From Phallusia mammillata (Eukaryota), in contig OZ281497.1 of the NCBI GenBank assembly GCA_965637545.1, positions 14,012,001 through 14,076,000 on the forward strand: DNA of 64,000 nt. Reading direction: 5' to 3'. The position numbers are program-made. Every line of letters starts with the position of its first letter. The stretch's first letter is position 1. Shown piece by piece: positions 1 through 33,000 of this stretch.

Positions 1-3000
1 TCATGGGAGCTCCAGAATAGGCGACTCGCACAGATTTTCTGTTTCTGAAGATCCCGAAGAGAAATATTCAATGGTATGTGTGTAGCATACATGTTCTAAC
101 ACTAACATCCATGTATAACTTTTCAATACCGCCAAGTTGGCCGAGTGGTTAGCGCAACCGCCTTGTGATCACAAGGTCGTTGGTTCTAATCCCATCTCGG
201 TCGCTTGTGTTTCCCTGAGCAAGAAACTTAAGCGGCATTGCTCCAACCCAGTGGTTTCCAATGGGTTGAACTAAATTGAAGTCACCAACTGCCTAAAATC
301 GAAAAAAATCAAAAAAAAAATGATCATCGGACTTGCAATAAAACAGGCAGCTCGACGGCGGACTCATTGTGAGCATAACGCATTCAGGCGTTGCCCGCCC
401 ACCGAGGATAAAAATGAAACAAACAAACAAACAAACAAACAATAGCTTTCTTTGCATTTAACGCGTAGAAGCGGGCCACTTTAAACACGCGGACTTTATT
501 TATTTAGGAACACATTCGAGCGTTATATAACGAACTCGGTGCTGAAGATCAAGACGCGGTACCCATTCAAACTCTTATGCGCCACCCAGTGTTTGAGGAT
601 GCTGTGTGTGAAACGAAGCGACATGGATGTCCTGTAAGTGTAAATTGTACATGATTTTAATAAAACAAACATATCAGATATTAAAATGCGATAACCACTG
701 AGAATATGGTCAGTTTTCATAAGCCTTGTACGGTTATTTGTGGCATCCATGAAATGTTTGCCCAACGCTAACACAATTGATTTTGATATTGTAATAAAAC
801 GTTAATGCAACTTTTTCAATGCAGGATATTCGATCGATCTTCACTCGTCAAACACTTCAAGCACTTGATGCTGACGACGCACAATCGGATCAAACTTGAT
901 TTTTGCATTGACTGTTTTAATGTTTTTTTACCGTTTTATGCTTCGTAAAGGATTTGTTTTGCGTTTATTGCACAAATATATAATTTTTATTGGCTTATTT
1001 CATGTATCCTTTTTCTACTTATTTCAACAAATACGTTTCTGAAAATATTAAAAGGAACTTTTACGTCGGTAAATCGTTTTCTTGACACAACGACTGCAAC
1101 CTGTGCATCAGCACGTCTTAGGTTTCATCTGACTTCTGAGAACAAAGTAAGAACCAAAATAGAAAACACCACTTTATTGAAACAACCTCATTTGTGGCAC
1201 ACACAATAGTAGTACAAACAGTATCAAAAGAGTCCATTACATGATTGAAGTTTTTTGACACAGTCGATAATTTTCAACCATGCTACGCACCAGGAAAACG
1301 ACAAACAGTTTGCTCAAATCGACTTTCAACATTTTAAGACAGTATTTTTTTCACCGCATTAGTCCGCAGTTAGCAAAGACGTGCAATGTAATGGAGTACG
1401 TATGTAAGGGCATTGCAAGGCTATATACAGTGTTAACACTTCTGGGTAAGTATGTGGCACCCTCTAGACTACGCTGGTTTATGTACAGATTTTGAGGTAG
1501 TTTGTCGGTTAGAACGTTGTTGGAAGGCTGCCGAAGTCGGTCAGAAAACTGTCCGTCTTAACGGTGTCTTGGTTACATGGGCATTACTTACAAAATTTGG
1601 TACAAAAAATGTTATGTACAGCGGCACAAAAAAACATACAAATCACGAAATATGCATTGATAACGAAATGTAATAGTTTGAACACTTTAACTTGTAAAAA
1701 AAGGATGGCTAAAAAAGTAAGAAACCGGCTTGTATAAAAAAGTTAAGGCAATGTTCCGCTCTGTGTGCATTTCATGCAATGTTGAATTGTTGCTGGCAAG
1801 AATTTAGCATGCGGTGCAAATTTGGCGTGTGATGCCGCTGGGAAAGCTAACGCATCTGCAGTTGGCACAGTTACTTGCTGGTGTGACACCTAAATAAAAA
1901 AAGACATTGTTAGAATAAAACAATATCAAATGGAATCGTATCTATATGTGCTTTATTTTATTTTGTTTTTTTTGATACCGTTCTTCGAATTTTAACCAAG
2001 TTGTTTTTGTTAAATGTTGAACCCCCAGAATGGAAAGGTGTCTCAATTTTTTTACCTGCAAGACGCTTGGCAACAGCCGCTGTCACTGGTTTTCCGGCAG
2101 TTCGTGTTCTTGTAGCCAGCTGTGGCGCGCTCCACACAGAACCATCGTTTACAGATGACAGCATGTTTGAGCAGATGTCCGTTTGCGAAACCAGCACCTT
2201 TAAAGCAAGATTATCATAGTTTCACAGAGTATTTTGACAACAATATAATTTACGGAATATTCCTATTGAGGACTTATACCGCATGTGAGTTGTGTAATTA
2301 CCTGATTAAGTTGATCAGCAATTGCAGTTGGATTTTCGCCTCGGATCGATTTTTTAGTGAAGGCGCCGATTTTGTCATAACCGACAACATAGTTTTTGCT
2401 ATTGACCGGTTTGTTGGTGCGAGACGCTTTGGTTTCAATTTCCTGGTTTCGAATCAGATGGAAGTTGATTTCAAAATTGTTAAACATATCAACAACTTCC
2501 GACTGGTCGATCTGCAAAAATTTAGAAAAAATATATTAATGAAACAGCGTAAATTTAGTGGGCATATTTCGATGGGAGAAATTGAAACAAAAAAGTGCAT
2601 TATATTTCTGTGATCAACTAAGCTTCGGACAAAACAACTTTAACATGTTAGAATTGATTACCTTTGGTGATGTCTGGCAATCACTGCAAGTCAGCATCAC
2701 AATGTTTCGTTTTGATGCAGCCTTGAATGGATACATTGCCGCTTGCTTCAAGGCTTCAACGGCAAAAGCACCAGAGTTTGTAGAGGAAGTCGATGGTTCC
2801 ACAAACCGTTTCAACATCTTCTCCAAGCTGTGTGCAGTTCCCATCAGCTGACCGTCAATCGTCACAGTATGCATGTTCACACCGGTTGAATCATACACCA
2901 CCAATCCGTAGCGAGAGTTCTCGTCACCAGCTCCAAGCAGACGGAGAAGACGTGGAAGAGTTGCACGCAAGATGGTGATACATGAGCCACCTTCCATCAC

Positions 3001-30000: not shown

Positions 30001-33000
30001 TCCATGTTTGTGACTTCAGTTGTTTGTTCCCTTGGGGAAATTGCTTGCTTCACAGTATACTTTTTATCATTGAAGAATAATTCAACATTCAACGGTCATC
30101 CAATATCTTGGTAAATCAAGTTTGTACATCGACATCCAGTGAAAACGTTCCACTACCTTATCAGACAATTACGCAGAGCGTCTTGTCGTCTCACAATGCT
30201 CCTTTGCTCCTTGCAACCAATCGACGGCTTTATAAAGGCGGGATGGAGGAGAAAAAATGCGAGCTTGTAAAATAAAGAAAGGTGGTGAAAACAGGCCTCG
30301 CACGCGGCGCATAATAAAACAAAGAAACGTTCCTATGTGACCTGTATTTGTAGTCACTGCACAACAAAAAATTTCCACTTGCTAGTCCCGTATTTTTTGG
30401 CAATTTTAGTTGACATTTATGTATTTTATGTGTTGTTTTTTATGCGAACAGTAAGTCTATTTTTAGGCAATATTTGCGAACAGAGTCGACTCGTTTTCTG
30501 AACATTTAAATTAAGCAAGTAAATATACCGTTTTGTAACTACAATTGTATTTGCATAAATATAAACCTACTTCTTTACCACGTTGACACAAAAAGGTTAA
30601 AACACACTGTTTTTTGTATTGGTACATTTTTTAGGTTGTTTTCACATAAGTAAAGCAGGCCAACAGGATTGTTTATCAACAAAAATGTGTTTTTCAAGTC
30701 CAATCACATTAAAAATATTAGGATGGCCTAACACAGTGGTTCCCAACCTTTTTTTAACGCGACACAAATACTTACCAAAATTTAGTTTTGTGGTTTCTCG
30801 CGACCCATGCACATGCTATTTTAGTTGTATGTTTGTCTGTAAGATAGGAAAGTTTTTTGAAAATTACTACGCCAGTTTAGCAAATCAATAACCTTACAAC
30901 GAACAAACGCTGTTGTTTTTTACGACCAAACATTTCCATTTATTCCGAACTTGGAGCTGAATCGAGGCATTATTTGTCAGACAACGCTCTACTGTGAGCT
31001 AACACATCACTTTATGACGTCACAAACAGTTTTAACCACACAACGAAAAGTTGTGATGAAGTTATTATTGGGCAACAATTTAAAGCCCTGGGTAATATAA
31101 AAGTAACGCTACGAGGCGTCAAAAAGTAGATGCTGTAGTTGTCACTAAAACAAGCGACCCAACAGAATGTTCAGGCGACCCAACTTTGGGAGACGGGCAT
31201 GCGAGCGTTTTTTGCACAATGTGCTCGAAAATGTGCAGGTCGAAATGTGCGCACATTTTTCGAAAATGTGCAGGTGCCAAAATGTGCAGGTCAAAATGTG
31301 CGCACATTTTTTGAAAATGTGCAGGTGCCAAAATGTGCAGGTCAAAATGTGCGCACATTTTTTGAAAATGTGCAGGTGCCAAAATGTGCAGGTCAAAATG
31401 TGCAGGTGCCAAAATGTGCAGGTGAAAATGTGCAGGTGCCGAAATGTGCAAGTCATAATGTGCAGGTGCCAAAATGTGCAGTCGCTCAAATGAAGTATTG
31501 ATATTTAACGTCAAACTATTGTTGTGGTCATAAATTGTGCCAAAAATATTAGTTATAAGTTATGACCTATAAATTAAAATCGGATTTAAGAGAAACTTGT
31601 AAAAATGCATGTTGTGTTTGTTAGATATGGCAAAGCGTGAAATTATCTAGCATTCAGGAAATAGGAAACACTGTTTTTCAGACTAGATATGTACACGATC
31701 GTCACCTCAATCGGTTTGACTTTATTGTTTTTAATTTAAGGCCTGTTAGCTTGTAGCCTGCCCAGCTTCTATAGATTTTACAATTAGACAATAGTATACT
31801 CATATGACAGTCCAGCTATTGTTTCCGTCACGCTTGATTAACACTACACGCTTGTCGGATGCTTGCATTGAGTTTGGTGCTTTAAGAGCAAGCAAATGAC
31901 AAAGCTGGGCTTGTATGGTCAGATTTATGCATCTACCCTGTATAATGTTACTACGTGGTTGTGATTGTGCTGTTGGAGAGTATTTAATGTACGTTTTATC
32001 TTTTTAGTACTTCTTTAAACGCTTTGAAGTGATTTTACCTAACATATTAAAGGGTGCATAAAGTTTATTACTAATTGATTTAAAGTCTGGTAAAAATAGA
32101 ACTTTCCTAACTGGCTGTATCTTTGAACTGATGTTCAACGACTTTGGCCTCGACCAGGAACTCTGGACAGACGAAAGGTCAAGCTTGAACAAAGATCATG
32201 TTTTTTTCCAAAGTTACTCATTTTAAACTGTCAACAAAGGGTAAATTTTGTGAATAAAAAATTAAGTTTATTTGAAGAAAAATTCAAGGCACCAAAACAA
32301 TTGCTAGACATCATAACCACCAAGGAAACTGGTGCAGAAAACACAAGTCAAATTGCTATGATAAGTAACAAAGAGTTAGACACAACAGAGTATTTATGAG
32401 GATATGTTTTTTCAAGGCAAAAAACTAGTTTACGGAAGTTATCAAAATTGTCAGCATGTTGTCAACCATGCGACCACAGGGCCAGCTGATTTCTTTAGTG
32501 GAGCCAAAGTCTGGAGGTCTCGCTTATCCTTTTATGAGTTACTGCAACTTTTACAAAGTGCGTAAATGCCTGACAGGATGTTTACGGCCAGCCAACAAGC
32601 TAGATTTTTACTGCATTGCAAAAGTTACACTGATCCTCACAGAGTTTCCAAAAAAGACATATGTGAAATTCTAGAAGTTGCTGGACTACCATATGAGTAT
32701 ACTGTTATTAAACTCAAAACCAAGTCAAAGACCCAGCTGTCCAGTGATTTTTATTCAATGAAACAAATGAATTATTAGAAAGTTTTCCATCCTTTGGGTT
32801 ATACTGCACAATTGACAAAAGGACTATATATGTGTCTTTGGAAGAAACTCAAATGACAACATTCAAAAAGAAAAGGACAACCACACAGTTGCCCAACTTA
32901 ATGTTTGACATTTTTTATTTGTTTGAGGCTCATTTACATGACATAACTTGGTATATGGGTATTTAATTAGGTTAGTTTTGAAACCCACACAAATACTTGA

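What the first reader, a model, noticed from the sequence alone, without database searches (positions are those of the whole stretch)
1804..30005. Probable chordate-lineage LLTP combining insect-apolipophorin features with apoB-like gigantism
Seen: an LLT N-terminus of the apoB/apolipophorin type, an internal RKKR, one huge central exon, and a retained VWD + Cys-rich + VWA-like tail; roughly 6,500 aa in total. Known: vertebrate apoB-100 (~4,500 aa) has a giant exon 26 (~7.6 kb) but no VWD, while insect apoLp-II/I (~3,300 aa) has VWD and furin cleavage. Inference: if the host is a tunicate, this gene bears on how apoB arose and may serve as both yolk precursor and circulating lipoprotein. Automated pipelines would probably label it vitellogenin or split it.
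Basis: partly seen in the sequence, partly recalled or inferred. Interest (0 to 1): 0.65.

Follow-up and report, generated by a model that had tools for sequence, protein, structure and literature searches.

The report
Giant ascidian apolipophorin-type lipoprotein gene
An intact 51-exon sea-squirt gene encodes a 6,559-residue lipid-carrier protein of the apolipophorin/apoB family, and its closest vertebrate counterparts are an unstudied protein family rather than apoB itself.

Summary
On the minus strand, 30005 to 1804, lies one intact gene of 51 coding exons. All 50 introns are GT-AG and there are no in-frame stops. It matches a public 6,559-aa protein of the ascidian Phallusia mammillata (A0A6F9DJ36, "uncharacterized protein LOC100186072") at 6,488 of 6,532 codons. 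Exon 31 is 11,566 nt. The protein has a signal-peptide-like start, an LLT module, RKKR at aa 714-717, DUF1081, a PF21013 segment, VWD, C8 and a Cys-bearing tail. The tail models as a VWA-like fold without the metal site.

The gene is an apolipophorin-type (APO-family) LLTP, not a vitellogenin, but it is not specially close to apoB. In NJ trees it groups with vertebrate "LOC400499-family" proteins, which keep VWD, in 159-169 of 200 bootstraps, and with apoB in 0 of 200. The giant exon shows no detectable similarity to apoB-100. It is an array of about 20 degenerate 150-180-aa amphipathic-beta repeats, shared with 38 of the 41 other PF21013 carriers. LLTPs above 6,000 aa also occur elsewhere.

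Verdict: a new member of a known kind, of moderate interest. Function is inferred, not tested.

The parts
1804..30005 (-). Whole coding region of the LLTP gene: 51 exons, 19,680 nt of CDS including the stop, 6,559 aa, 732 kDa precursor
   Evidence: 50/50 GT-AG introns, 0 in-frame stops, 6,488 of 6,532 whole codons identical to P0001.
29954..30005 (-). Exon 1: ATG and a hydrophobic signal-peptide-like start (17 codons)
   Evidence: translation read directly. No signal-peptide predictor was run.
25245..29245 (-). Exons 3-13: N-terminal part of the LLT module (Vitellogenin_N, PF01347)
   Evidence: exon 3 scores 28.6 bits, exon 4 scores 36.6 bits, exon 9 scores 16.7 bits (below cut-off). The extent is set by analogy with Clavelina P0002, aa 38-584.
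23933..25177 (-). Exons 14-18: open beta-sheet part of the LLT module (PF09172)
   Evidence: 61.9 and 25.1 bits. Exon 14 alone has apoB-100 as its best PDB hit (E 0.062).
24725..24736 (-). Codons for RKKR, aa 714-717 (exon 15): furin-type dibasic site in the apoLp-II/I cleavage loop
   Evidence: PMC1783640 passages. Cleavage itself is inferred.
23470..23655 (-). Exon 20: DUF1081 (PF06448), the APO-family marker
   Evidence: 31.5 bits against a cut-off of 25.
21669..22450 (-). Exons 25-27: segment matching PF21013 ('LOC400499 family')
   Evidence: 45.5 bits (cut-off 27) and 17.6 bits. PF21013 is in the precomputed domain list of P0001.
9277..20842 (-). Exon 31, the giant exon: 11,566 nt, aa 1545-5400. 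The intron before it is phase 2 and the intron after it is phase 0.
   Evidence: No Pfam family. No apoB-100 hit in PDB.
9361..20304 (-). Array of about 20 degenerate 150-180-aa amphipathic-beta repeats (aa 1725-5372) inside the giant exon. One more weak copy lies in exons 34-35 (8451-8812).
6851..6933 (-). Second RX[KR]R site (RSRR, aa 5796-5799), split across intron 39
   Evidence: Poorly conserved. Its use is speculative.
3428..5842 (-). Exons 45-46: VWD domain, split by the longest intron (1,793 nt)
   Evidence: 17.6 bits (below cut-off) and 38.5 bits. Cys conserved in 14-16 of 16 relatives.
3212..3351 (-). Exon 47: C8 domain
   Evidence: 27.1 bits against a cut-off of 23.7. Cys conserved in 14-15 of 16 relatives.
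2056..3103 (-). Exons 48-50: post-C8 module with a VWA-like fold and no MIDAS. Only exon 48 was modelled.
1804..1889 (-). Exon 51: C-terminal cluster of 5 Cys, then the TAA stop
   Evidence: Cys kept in 8-9 of 16 relatives.

Best explanation
This is the Phallusia mammillata gene for a secreted, apolipophorin-type large lipid transfer protein (APO family). It is the tunicate member of the chordate lineage that Pfam calls the LOC400499 family (PF21013).

Shown here:
- Gene structure and domain order.
- The family grouping.
- The repeat array and its beta-type amphipathicity.
- The VWA-like fold of the tail.

Inferred working, from what is known of apoLp-II/I, apolipocrustacein and apoB:
1. The signal peptide takes the chain into the ER.
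2. The N-terminal LLT module plus DUF1081 nucleates a lipid core.
3. A furin-type protease cuts at RKKR(714-717). This gives a 77-kDa apoLp-II-like piece and a 652-kDa apoLp-I-like piece that stay on one particle.
4. The roughly 3,800-residue array of amphipathic beta repeats encoded by the giant exon spreads over the lipid surface as a belt, as apoB's beta regions do.
5. The C-terminal VWD-C8-VWA-like block (57 kDa) mediates protein contacts. In ascidian eggs this may include deposition on the vitelline coat.

The great length most likely arose by multiplication of the repeat inside one exon, not by descent from APOB exon 26.
For: Gene:
- 51 exons, 50/50 GT-AG introns, 0 stops, 27/27 split codons match P0001.

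APO family:
- Vitellogenin_N, open beta-sheet, DUF1081 and VWD are all present, in that order.
- A profile of relatives scores apoB-100 at 299.7 bits, lipovitellin at 193 and MTP at 58.
- RKKR lies in the loop that carries RX[KR]R in 19 of 46 relatives.

PF21013 lineage:
- PF21013 scores 45.5 bits.
- Tunicates group with the vertebrate PF21013 proteins in 161/200, 159/200 and 169/200 NJ bootstraps.
- A repeat HMM made from Phallusia hits 38 of 118 other proteins. All 38 are among the 41 PF21013 carriers. It hits 0 of 118 reversed controls.
- An HMM made only from the 123 non-Phallusia copies finds 28 domains in P0001, 21 of them at 20 bits or more, and 0 in the reversed sequence.

Beta belt:
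- The period-2 hydrophobic moment is 0.362 against 0.260 in shuffles (z 15.8). That is like the apoB beta zones (z 9.0 and 7.0). There is no alpha-type signal (z -2.4).
- The AF2 model of two units has 21 strands and 2 short helices.

Tail:
- The exon 48 model has pLDDT 76.2 and pTM 0.66, with beta-alpha-beta order.
- The best Foldseek matches are integrin I-domains, factor B, ANTXR2 and VWF A2. The best is 1qcy at E 1.2e-3, probability 1.00.
- 5 of 5 PDB sequence hits are integrin I-domains.
- VWA is found in 4 of 17 tail relatives, best E 7.8e-4.

Ascidian context, from passages read:
- An ApoB-like protein is the most abundant Ciona vitelline-coat protein.
- In Halocynthia a 55-kDa C-terminal vWF-D + CT piece of a 'vitellogenin' sits on the coat (PMC9265791).
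Against: - Nothing here shows expression, cleavage, lipid binding or tissue.
- The trees are neighbour-joining only, have no Vtg or MTP outgroup and give about 80-85% support. apoB is a long branch whose placement is unreliable.
- The dibasic site is not kept in the other two tunicates: Clavelina has KNKR and Ciona has none.
- The repeat HMM started from Phallusia, so it favours close relatives. Hemichordates give weak signals: 24.4 bits against a best reversed control of 13.4, and hhalign 39.4 against 24.2.
- A post hoc motif is also enriched in an annelid and a scallop. The repeat may therefore be older than the PF21013 lineage.
- The two-unit model has low confidence (pLDDT 44.3, pTM 0.32). 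I did not fold-search it.
- Foldseek found no match at E <= 0.001 for the tail, and TM-scores normalised to the query are 0.37-0.54.
- I could not verify that P0001 comes from cDNA. Its 0.7% difference from the window only shows that it comes from another haplotype or source.
Confidence: 0.75

Rival explanations
1. It is the tunicate ortholog or pro-ortholog of apoB. On this view apoB arose from this lineage, and the giant exon descends from the same ancestral exon as APOB exon 26.
For: - apoB shares LLT + DUF1081 with it (PMC1783640).
- Both have one very long exon starting a few hundred residues after DUF1081. APOB exon 26 is 7,572 nt (PMC3640928, abstract in the listing).
- Both long regions are beta-amphipathic.
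- Only one APO-type protein per tunicate species came back. A Ciona paper counts only ApoB, vitellogenin and MTTP (PMC5550911).
- apoB's long branch makes its NJ placement unreliable.
Against: - Tunicates + apoB group in 0 of 200 bootstraps, and tunicates + PF21013 proteins + apoB in 0 of 200.
- apoB hits have E 1e-53 to 1e-28. Invertebrate apolipophorin-likes have about 1e-175 and vertebrate PF21013 proteins about 1e-153.
- apoB aligns only as far as about aa 1075.
- The giant exon and its repeat profile find no apoB: 2.9 bits or less; probability 0.27%; 20.2, below the reversed control at 27.5.
- apoB lacks VWD, C8 and the tail.
Confidence: 0.15
2. It is a true vitellogenin, a yolk precursor of the Vtg family, as ascidian papers name the Halocynthia protein that has vWF-D and CT.
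For: - Pfam names its N-terminal domains 'Vitellogenin_N' and 'Vitellinogen open beta-sheet'.
- Relatives carry names such as 'Vitellogenin domain-containing protein'.
- The 57-kDa C-terminal VWD-to-end piece is close to the 55-kDa vWF-D + CT precursor of the Halocynthia 'vitellogenin' (PMC9265791).
Against: - DUF1081 is present. Avarre 2007 reports that domain as exclusive to the APO family.
- C8 follows VWD, whereas the honey-bee Vg paper states that C8 and TIL are absent in all vitellogenins (PMC12214520).
- A profile of relatives prefers apoB-100 to lipovitellin, 299.7 against 193 bits.
- Exon 14 hits apoB-100 and no lipovitellin.
- The best named hits are apolipophorins-like.
- At 6,559 aa it is several times the 1,800 aa quoted for an insect Vg (PMC5654974, abstract in the listing).
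- Caveat: no named classical vitellogenin was in my trees.
Confidence: 0.04
3. The 6,559-aa model is two or more neighbouring genes joined by mistake, or the giant exon is normally skipped.
For: - The middle is poorly conserved. Only Clavelina aligns through it.
- The Clavelina model ends before VWD.
- Halocynthia makes short mRNAs for the C-terminal part only (PMC9265791).
Against: - One continuous frame crosses all 50 canonical junctions with no stop.
- A database protein from a different haplotype covers every exon.
- N-terminal LLT and C-terminal VWD + tail are found in single proteins of many phyla: Ciona, skate, hemichordates, annelid, insects.
- No second start or LLT module lies inside. 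tblastn found one locus only.
Confidence: 0.04
4. Its main role is not lipid carriage. It would act as an extracellular structural or recognition protein (egg-coat component, sperm-protease partner, or clotting/adhesion) through the VWD-C8-VWA-like end.
For: - ApoB-like protein is the most abundant Ciona vitelline-coat protein and has a sperm-side partner.
- Halocynthia vWF-D and CT fragments bind sperm proteases (PMC9265791).
- An apoB-like protein is also found in amphioxus egg coats (PMC3543715).
- VWD-C8 is the module of polymer-forming VWF, mucins and FCGBP.
- VWA folds are protein-binding modules.
Against: - This is not exclusive of lipid carriage.
- The LLT module, DUF1081 and about 3,800 aa of beta-amphipathic sequence are hard to explain without lipid.
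- I could not show that the proteins in those papers are orthologs of this gene. No accession was seen, and the supplements that may list one were not opened.
Confidence: 0.3

Closest known systems
Vertebrate PF21013 'LOC400499 family' proteins (for example skate P0028, 4,113 aa; alligator P0029; bird P0104; teleosts of about 3,800 aa). All are 'uncharacterized' in their sources.
   Same: - Same domain order. In skate: Vit_N 46-588, open beta-sheet 621-944, PF21013 1117-1642, VWD 3604-3743, C8 3781-3839.
- Sister group in NJ trees.
- Same central repeat unit: skate 5 copies, alligator 4, bird 2, teleosts 1-4.
- Skate keeps the VWA-like tail.
   Different: - Phallusia is 1.6-1.9 times longer, with about 20 repeat copies.
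- Its DUF1081 passes the Pfam cut-off, which the vertebrate members do not show in their lists.
- It keeps the full tail, which alligator, bird and the two teleosts in the alignment lack.
- Identity is only 26-27% over the N-terminal 1,400 aa.
Insect apolipophorin-II/I, crustacean apolipocrustacein and 'apolipophorins-like' proteins of hemichordates, echinoderms, molluscs and annelids (APO family of Avarre 2007)
   Same: - LLT + DUF1081 + C-terminal VWD.
- A dibasic site at about aa 715-728.
- The C8 and post-C8 tail, with the same Cys pattern in 8-10 of 16 relatives.
- The strongest non-tunicate hits, E about 1e-175.
   Different: - No PF21013 match in 75 of the 77 fetched proteins outside the clade. 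Two unnamed proteins carry it.
- The Phallusia repeat HMM finds none at E <= 1e-3. Signals in hemichordates are only weak.
- Classic apoLp-II/I is about 3,300 aa (recalled).
Vertebrate apolipoprotein B-100
   Same: - LLT module and DUF1081.
- One exceptionally long exon.
- A long beta-amphipathic central region.
- It is the best solved-structure match of the family's N-terminus (9bd1).
   Different: - No VWD, C8 or tail.
- No similarity beyond about aa 1075.
- apoB's alpha-amphipathic zone has no counterpart.
- It never groups with tunicates (0/200).
- ApoB100_C (PF12491) is absent from P0001's domain list.
- The exon here is 11,566 nt against 7,572 nt.
Ascidian 'ApoB-like' vitelline-coat protein (Ciona) and the Halocynthia 'vitellogenin' with vWF-D (25 kDa) and CT (30 kDa) fragments
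   Same: - Ascidian LLTPs with a C-terminal VWD plus a further C-terminal region.
- A 55-kDa precursor, against 57 kDa from VWD start to the end here.
- The Ciona relative P0003 (LOC100186072, 5,477 aa) aligns at both ends.
   Different: Identity with those published proteins is not shown, because no sequence or accession of them reached me. Their reported roles are at the egg coat, not in lipid transport.
D assemblies of von Willebrand factor, mucins and FCGBP, and VWA/I-domains of integrins, factor B and ANTXR2
   Same: - VWD-C8 matches those D assemblies (FCGBP 214.9 bits, VWF 108 bits).
- The exon 48 model matches VWA folds.
   Different: - No TIL/E module was detected.
- The MIDAS positions are E, K/R/G/A and C instead of D, S, S.
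- Two invariant Cys sit where the metal site would be.

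Membership tests
LLTP superfamily | [quoted passage not shown] | tested here: met
   Exon-wise Pfam: 28.6 and 36.6 bits, and 61.9 and 25.1 bits. Both are in P0001's precomputed list.
APO family (apoB / apoLp-II/I / apolipocrustacein; Avarre 2007, PMC1783640) | DUF1081 (PF06448) after the LLT module | tested here: met
   Exon 20 scores 31.5 bits against a cut-off of 25.
APO family, apolipophorin/apolipocrustacein type | RX(R/K)R dibasic site at about aa 720, between LLT motifs | tested here: met
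   RKKR at aa 714-717 is encoded in the window. 19 of 46 relatives have the motif in the same alignment loop. Cleavage was not tested.
APO family, apolipophorin/apolipocrustacein type | VWD domain near the C-terminus | tested here: met
   Exon 46 scores 38.5 bits and exon 45 scores 17.6 bits. Cys are conserved.
PF21013 'LOC400499 family' | Match to PF21013 above the curated cut-off | tested here: met
   45.5 bits against a cut-off of 27 on exon 25 alone, profile positions 131-195 of 527. Only part of the profile could be seen exon by exon.
PF21013 'LOC400499 family' | Groups with the vertebrate members in a tree of the N-terminal 1,500 aa | tested here: met
   161/200, 159/200 and 169/200 NJ bootstraps. 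No ML tree and no outgroup.
PF21013 'LOC400499 family' | Shared central repeat (my own criterion, not a published one) | tested here: met
   38 of 41 other carriers are hit, 0 of 77 non-carriers at E <= 1e-3 and 0 of 118 reversed controls.
Vertebrate apoB | Groups with apoB; similarity through the central region; no VWD; ApoB100_C | tested here: not met
   0/200 bootstraps. No central similarity. VWD is present. PF12491 is not in P0001's list.
Vertebrate apoB | Giant exon at the same position and phase as APOB exon 26 | not testable with these tools
   No vertebrate genomic sequence is on hand, human sequence is not to be used, and proteins are not alignable past about aa 1075. Here the intron before the exon is phase 2 and the one after is phase 0.
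True vitellogenin | LLT domain nearer to vitellogenins; no DUF1081; no C8 next to VWD | tested here: not met
   DUF1081 and C8 are present. A profile of relatives scores apoB-100 at 299.7 against lipovitellin at 193 bits. PMC12214520 passage. No named vitellogenin was in my tree.
VWA domain (PF00092) in the tail | Sequence match above the curated cut-off | tested here: not met
   13.2 bits against a cut-off of 23.8. 4 of 17 relatives match, best E 7.8e-4.
VWA domain (fold) | Alternating beta-alpha fold matching solved VWA/I-domains | tested here: met
   AF2 model of exon 48: pLDDT 76.2, pTM 0.66. In Foldseek at least 8 of the 10 best matches are named integrin I-domains, factor B or ANTXR2. 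The best has E 1.2e-3, and none reaches E <= 0.001. Only about two thirds of a domain was modelled.
VWA domain (function) | MIDAS metal site (D-x-S-x-S, T, D) | tested here: not met
   The equivalent columns are E (10/11), K/R/G/A and C (11/11) (using the alignment).

The most novel reading that the evidence does not exclude
The PF21013 lineage is the direct chordate continuation of apolipophorin-II/I. apoB would then be a vertebrate-only, fast-evolving duplicate of it that shed the VWD-C8-VWA-like end and rebuilt its belt. Tunicates, which returned a single APO-type gene per species in these searches, would use this one protein both as circulating lipoprotein and as egg-coat or yolk component. 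The expandable ~150-180-aa beta repeat would set particle size. The still unstudied human and vertebrate LOC400499 genes would then be relict apolipophorins.
Probability: 0.25. Interest if true: 0.7.

Novelty: new member of a known kind. Interest (0 to 1): 0.4.

Why it matters
The gene is real, intact and extreme: a 732-kDa precursor and an 11.6-kb exon. The lesson differs from the one proposed. Chordates carry a second apolipophorin-type LLTP lineage beside apoB. It keeps VWD and C8 and is present from tunicates to birds. In the library searched it has only incidental mentions: the 12 papers naming LOC400499 are gene-list, GWAS or ortholog-table mentions in the two I opened.

A compact ascidian ortholog gives a tractable place to describe what that lineage does. 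It has about 20 recognisable repeat units, a furin-type site and a complete tail.

Two descriptive points may be new. I found no paper on either:
- the shared central repeat that accounts for the length differences;
- a MIDAS-less VWA-like module after VWD-C8 in apolipophorin-type proteins of many phyla.

None of this changes the known picture of how such lipoproteins work.

Tried and rejected
- **Pfam on whole P0001**: I kept to exon-wise scans and the precomputed list.
- **Giant exon against Pfam** **and PDB**: nothing.
- **blastp of P0001 against itself**: no repeats found. phmmer on 400-aa windows did find them.
- **A ~65-aa base unit**: suggested by the spacings hits, but iteration from a 61-aa seed gave only 5 copies. 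Not claimed.
- **DNA-level tandem repeats in the giant exon**: 0 of 14 TRF rows lie inside it.
- **'Shorter' homolog search**: 19 hits with no classical vitellogenin, no MTP and no Halocynthia protein. The tree therefore has no outgroup.
- **Larger tail alignment A4 against PDB**: only VWD-C8 matches. The VWA signal was not improved.
- **Repeat profile against lophotrochozoan central regions**: 33.2, no better than the reversed control at 32.4.
- **ESM Atlas**: could not take the neighbouring ORF or P0121.
- **Two-unit repeat model**: too poor (pLDDT 44.3) to fold-search, so I did not.
- **Neighbouring ORFs**: no Pfam or PDB match.
- **RNA genes**: no Rfam family and no tRNA.

Full report
**1. 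Observation**

The window has no N. Its largest stop-free frame is on the minus strand: 9265-20877, 3,871 codons. A search with that frame alone returned one protein, P0001. It is 6,559 aa, 99% identical over 100% of the query, and named 'Uncharacterized protein LOC100186072' of Phallusia mammillata (UniRef100_A0A6F9DJ36, CAB3262976.1). Phallusia is an ascidian, so the window is tunicate, not human.

tblastn and a k-mer/diagonal mapping place P0001 on the minus strand from ATG 30005 to TAA 1804-1806, in 51 exons. These are exactly the finding's bounds.
- All 50 introns are GT..AG.
- All 27 split codons give the P0001 residue.
- No exon holds a stop.
- Intron phases are 23 / 16 / 11 for phases 0 / 1 / 2.
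- 44 of 6,532 whole codons differ from P0001: 5 in exons 1-30, 28 in exon 31 and 11 in exons 32-51. The record therefore comes from another haplotype or source.
- Whether the record is cDNA-derived I only recall and could not check.
- Exon 31 spans 9277-20842. It is 11,566 nt, covers aa 1545-5400 and makes 59% of the CDS. The other exons are 45-442 nt. The median intron is 78 nt and the longest is 1,793 nt.
- tblastn found no second copy in the window.

The public protein P0001, used by id, stood in where a longer query was needed.

**2. Domains**

Exon-wise Pfam scans gave:
- Vitellogenin_N in exons 3, 4 and 9: 28.6, 36.6 and 16.7 bits.
- Open beta-sheet in exons 14 and 18: 61.9 and 25.1 bits.
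- DUF1081 in exon 20: 31.5 bits.
- PF21013 'LOC400499 family' in exons 25 and 27: 45.5 and 17.6 bits.
- VWD in exons 45 and 46: 17.6 and 38.5 bits.
- C8 in exon 47: 27.1 bits.
- A sub-threshold VWA in exon 48: 13.2 bits against a cut-off of 23.8.
- Nothing in the giant exon or in exons 49-51.

Other features:
- The first 17 codons are hydrophobic, like a signal peptide (read by eye).
- RKKR is encoded in exon 15 at aa 714-717. The only other RX[KR]R is RSRR at aa 5796-5799.
- Predicted pieces are 77 kDa (aa 18-717), 652 kDa (aa 718-6559) and 57 kDa (VWD start to the end). The whole precursor is 732 kDa.

**3. Family**

With P0001 residues 1-1500 as query, 100 proteins of 3,607-11,479 aa passed E <= 0.001.

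| Group | Result |
|---|---|
| Clavelina (tunicate) | 47% identity |
| Ciona LOC100186072 (tunicate) | 30% identity |
| 'Apolipophorins-like' proteins of hemichordates, molluscs and annelids | E about 1e-175 to 1e-150 |
| Vertebrate 'uncharacterized' proteins with PF21013, VWD and often C8 | skate 3e-153, alligator 4e-149, teleosts about 1e-120 |
| True apoB-100 | E 4e-53 to 9e-36 |

The 'shorter' search gave 19 hits. They include a bird PF21013 protein but no classical vitellogenin, no MTP and no Halocynthia protein.

Trees. I built a neighbour-joining tree of 46 named proteins over 1,364 columns.
- Tunicates join the vertebrate PF21013 proteins in 161 of 200 bootstraps.
- A second distance measure gives 159/200, and 169/200 without apoB and Clytia.
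- Tunicates + apoB: 0/200. Tunicates + PF21013 proteins + apoB: 0/200.
- The trees are unrooted NJ and apoB is a long branch, so apoB's own origin stays open.

Other evidence on family:
- A profile of four N-terminal relatives scores human apoB-100 at 299.7 bits, lamprey lipovitellin at 193 and MTP at 58.
- The window's own exon 14 has apoB-100 as its best PDB hit (E 0.062) and no lipovitellin.
- Avarre et al. 2007 (PMC1783640, passages) define the APO family by LLT + DUF1081 + C-terminal VWD, with a dibasic site at about aa 725-728. All four features are met here.
- The RKKR loop carries RX[KR]R in 19 of 46 aligned relatives. Clavelina has KNKR there and Ciona has nothing.

**4. The giant exon**

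Conservation.
- Only Clavelina aligns through the middle: 33% identity over 4,393 columns.
- Ciona, skate, alligator, a hemichordate, an annelid and an insect align at the N-terminal ~1,400 aa and the C-terminal ~600-700 aa only.
- apoB aligns only to about aa 1075.

Repeats.
- phmmer of 400-aa windows against the protein gave 144 off-diagonal matches. The best is 35 bits, aa 1933-2255 against 3392-3711. One reversed and three block-shuffled controls gave 0.
- An iterated profile gives 20 copies of a ~180-position unit over aa 1725-5572. The scoring there is circular.
- That HMM hits 38 of the other 118 fetched proteins. All 38 are among the 41 that carry PF21013. It hits 0 of 118 reversed controls.
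- Copy numbers: Clavelina 14, Ciona 7, skate 5, alligator 4, bird 2, teleosts 1-4.
- An HMM made only from the 123 non-Phallusia copies finds 28 domains in P0001, 21 of them at 20 bits or more, and 0 in the reversed sequence.
- There is no DNA-level tandem repeat in the exon.

How far the repeat reaches.
- Hemichordates give weak signals: 24.4 and 15.8 bits against a best reversed control of 13.4, and hhalign 39.4 against 24.2.
- Lophotrochozoans are no better than the control (33.2 against 32.4).
- apoB gives none: 2.9 bits or less; hhalign 20.2 against a reversed control of 27.5; probability 0.27%.
- PDB searches with the exon and with its repeat alignment did not return apoB-100.
- A motif I noticed post hoc (hydrophobic-x-hydrophobic-x-H-D/N) occurs 18 times against 1.5 expected in Phallusia. 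It is also enriched in Clavelina, Ciona, an annelid and a scallop, each with 0 of 300 shuffles reaching the observed count. It is weakly enriched in a shark apoB (3 of 300) and not in mammalian apoB. The repeat may therefore be older than the clade in which the HMM sees it.

Physical character.
- The mean period-2 hydrophobic moment is 0.362 against 0.260 in shuffles (z 15.8). In a hamster apoB the beta zones give z 9.0 and 7.0. The zone limits are recalled.
- There is no alpha-type signal (z -2.4), against z 3.6 in apoB's alpha zone.
- AlphaFold2 on two adjacent units, with 8 window-derived rows, gave a low-confidence model (pLDDT 44.3, pTM 0.32) of 21 strands and 2 short helices. I take only the strand content from it and did not fold-search it.

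**5. The tail**

Cys conservation in a 17-protein C-terminal alignment:
- VWD and C8 cysteines are kept in 14-16 of 16 relatives.
- Ten further Cys positions, aa 6286-6559, are kept in 8-10 of 16.

Relatives of exon 48.
- phmmer with exon 48 against 1.84 billion representatives gave 23 hits.
- I scanned 7 of them. 6 have VWD (5 also C8) just upstream of the match. The seventh is a repetitive, unrelated protein.
- The named ones are 'apolipophorins-like' (sea urchin) and 'Apolipoprot-like' (snail).

Evidence for a VWA-like fold.
- The profile of exon 48 plus 16 short hits found 5 PDB sequences at E <= 10. All five are integrin alpha I-domains, E 0.19-1.3.
- Scanned singly, 4 of the 17 members match VWA (best E 7.8e-4), 2 match TssR_VWA and 1 matches Med25_VWA.
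- AlphaFold2 on that alignment gave pLDDT 76.2 and pTM 0.66, with beta-alpha-beta-beta-alpha-alpha-beta order.
- The best Foldseek matches in PDB are integrin alpha-1 I-domains, factor B, ANTXR2, VWF A2 and MIC2. The best is 1qcy at E 1.2e-3, probability 1.00, TM 0.47. None reaches E <= 0.001.

The metal site is not kept. The MIDAS-equivalent columns are E (10 of 11), K/R/G/A and C (11 of 11). Two invariant Cys, at aa 6308 and 6406, sit at the ends of strands 1 and 4. A disulfide there is my inference.

Distribution. The module is present in 11 of the 17 aligned proteins, including Ciona and skate. It is absent from alligator, bird, two teleosts, octopus and a coral.

Contrast with vitellogenins. 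The honey-bee Vg paper states that C8 and TIL are absent next to vWD in all vitellogenins (PMC12214520, passages). This is a further difference from Vtg.

**6. What is known**

- Ciona is said to have three LLTPs: ApoB, vitellogenin and MTTP. 'ApoB' is 160-fold up in heat-stressed ovary (PMC5550911, passages).
- An ApoB-like protein is the most abundant Ciona vitelline-coat protein.
- In Halocynthia a 'vitellogenin' gives 25-kDa vWF-D and 30-kDa CT fragments on the coat, from a 55-kDa precursor. These fragments bind sperm proteases. Short C-terminal mRNAs are made in oocytes and test cells, and a long mRNA in hepatopancreas (PMC9265791, passages).
- An apoB-like protein is also in amphioxus egg coats (PMC3543715, passages).
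- I could not show that these are orthologs of this gene. No accession was in the passages read, and supplementary tables that I could not see may hold them.
- APOB exon 26 is 7,572 nt (PMC3640928, abstract in the listing).
- LOC400499 appears in 12 papers. I opened two. One is an ortholog table that lists it beside APOB for fly apolpp (PMC12561791). The other is a suggestive HDL-C GWAS signal (PMC10869499).
- No paper in the library treats LOC100186072 (one incidental hit), the Phallusia gene, a tunicate LLTP phylogeny or a VWA in apolipophorins.

**7. Verdict**

The gene is an intact APO-family, apolipophorin-type LLTP of the PF21013 lineage. It is already in the databases as an uncharacterized protein.

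Its likeness to apoB is functional and physicochemical, not by detectable descent of the long exon.

Its size is matched by other LLTPs. 8 of the 119 proteins fetched are 6,000 aa or longer, and an unnamed one has 6,972 aa.

Function, cleavage and expression are inferred.

Noticed in passing
window 3782-5574 (intron 45); repeat at 4920-5391, A-rich tract at 5389-5452: The longest intron (1,793 nt) splits the VWD domain. It holds a 157-bp unit repeated 3.0 times (91% matches), followed by an A-rich tract. It may be an inserted repeat element.
   Followed up: no
window 31211-31481 and 33770-34144: Two arrays of a 14-16-bp motif lie in opposite orientation about 1.2 kb upstream of the gene's ATG. 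Their arms are up to 158 nt long and 96% complementary, about 2.3 kb apart, with no ORF over 74 aa between them. This is a foldback-like inverted-repeat structure of unknown nature.
   Followed up: partly
window 53205-57000, minus strand: Three long, hydrophilic, low-complexity open frames (536, 175 and 207 aa) have no Pfam family. The 536-aa frame, the only one searched, has no PDB sequence match. They are probably large exons of an unidentified neighbouring gene for a disordered protein.
   Followed up: partly
window 30157-30234, minus strand, upstream of ATG 30005: Consensus-like motifs were read by eye: TATAAA at 30229-30234, an inverted CCAAT at 30217-30222 and TGATAA (GATA-type) at 30157-30163. 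No test was done. No AATAAA is seen in the 430 nt after the stop.
   Followed up: no
window 9277-20842 compared with the rest: The giant exon is richer in G+C (0.446) than the window as a whole (0.394) or the region 30006-64000 (0.376).
   Followed up: no
relatives P0028, P0029, P0104, P0039, P0052 (no window coordinates): Among vertebrate PF21013 proteins only the skate keeps the post-C8 VWA-like module. Alligator, bird and the two teleosts aligned end soon after C8. The Clavelina model P0002 ends before VWD. That may be an isoform or a truncated model.
   Followed up: partly
whole window: No tRNA gene and no Rfam family at gathering score in the 64 kb.
   Followed up: yes
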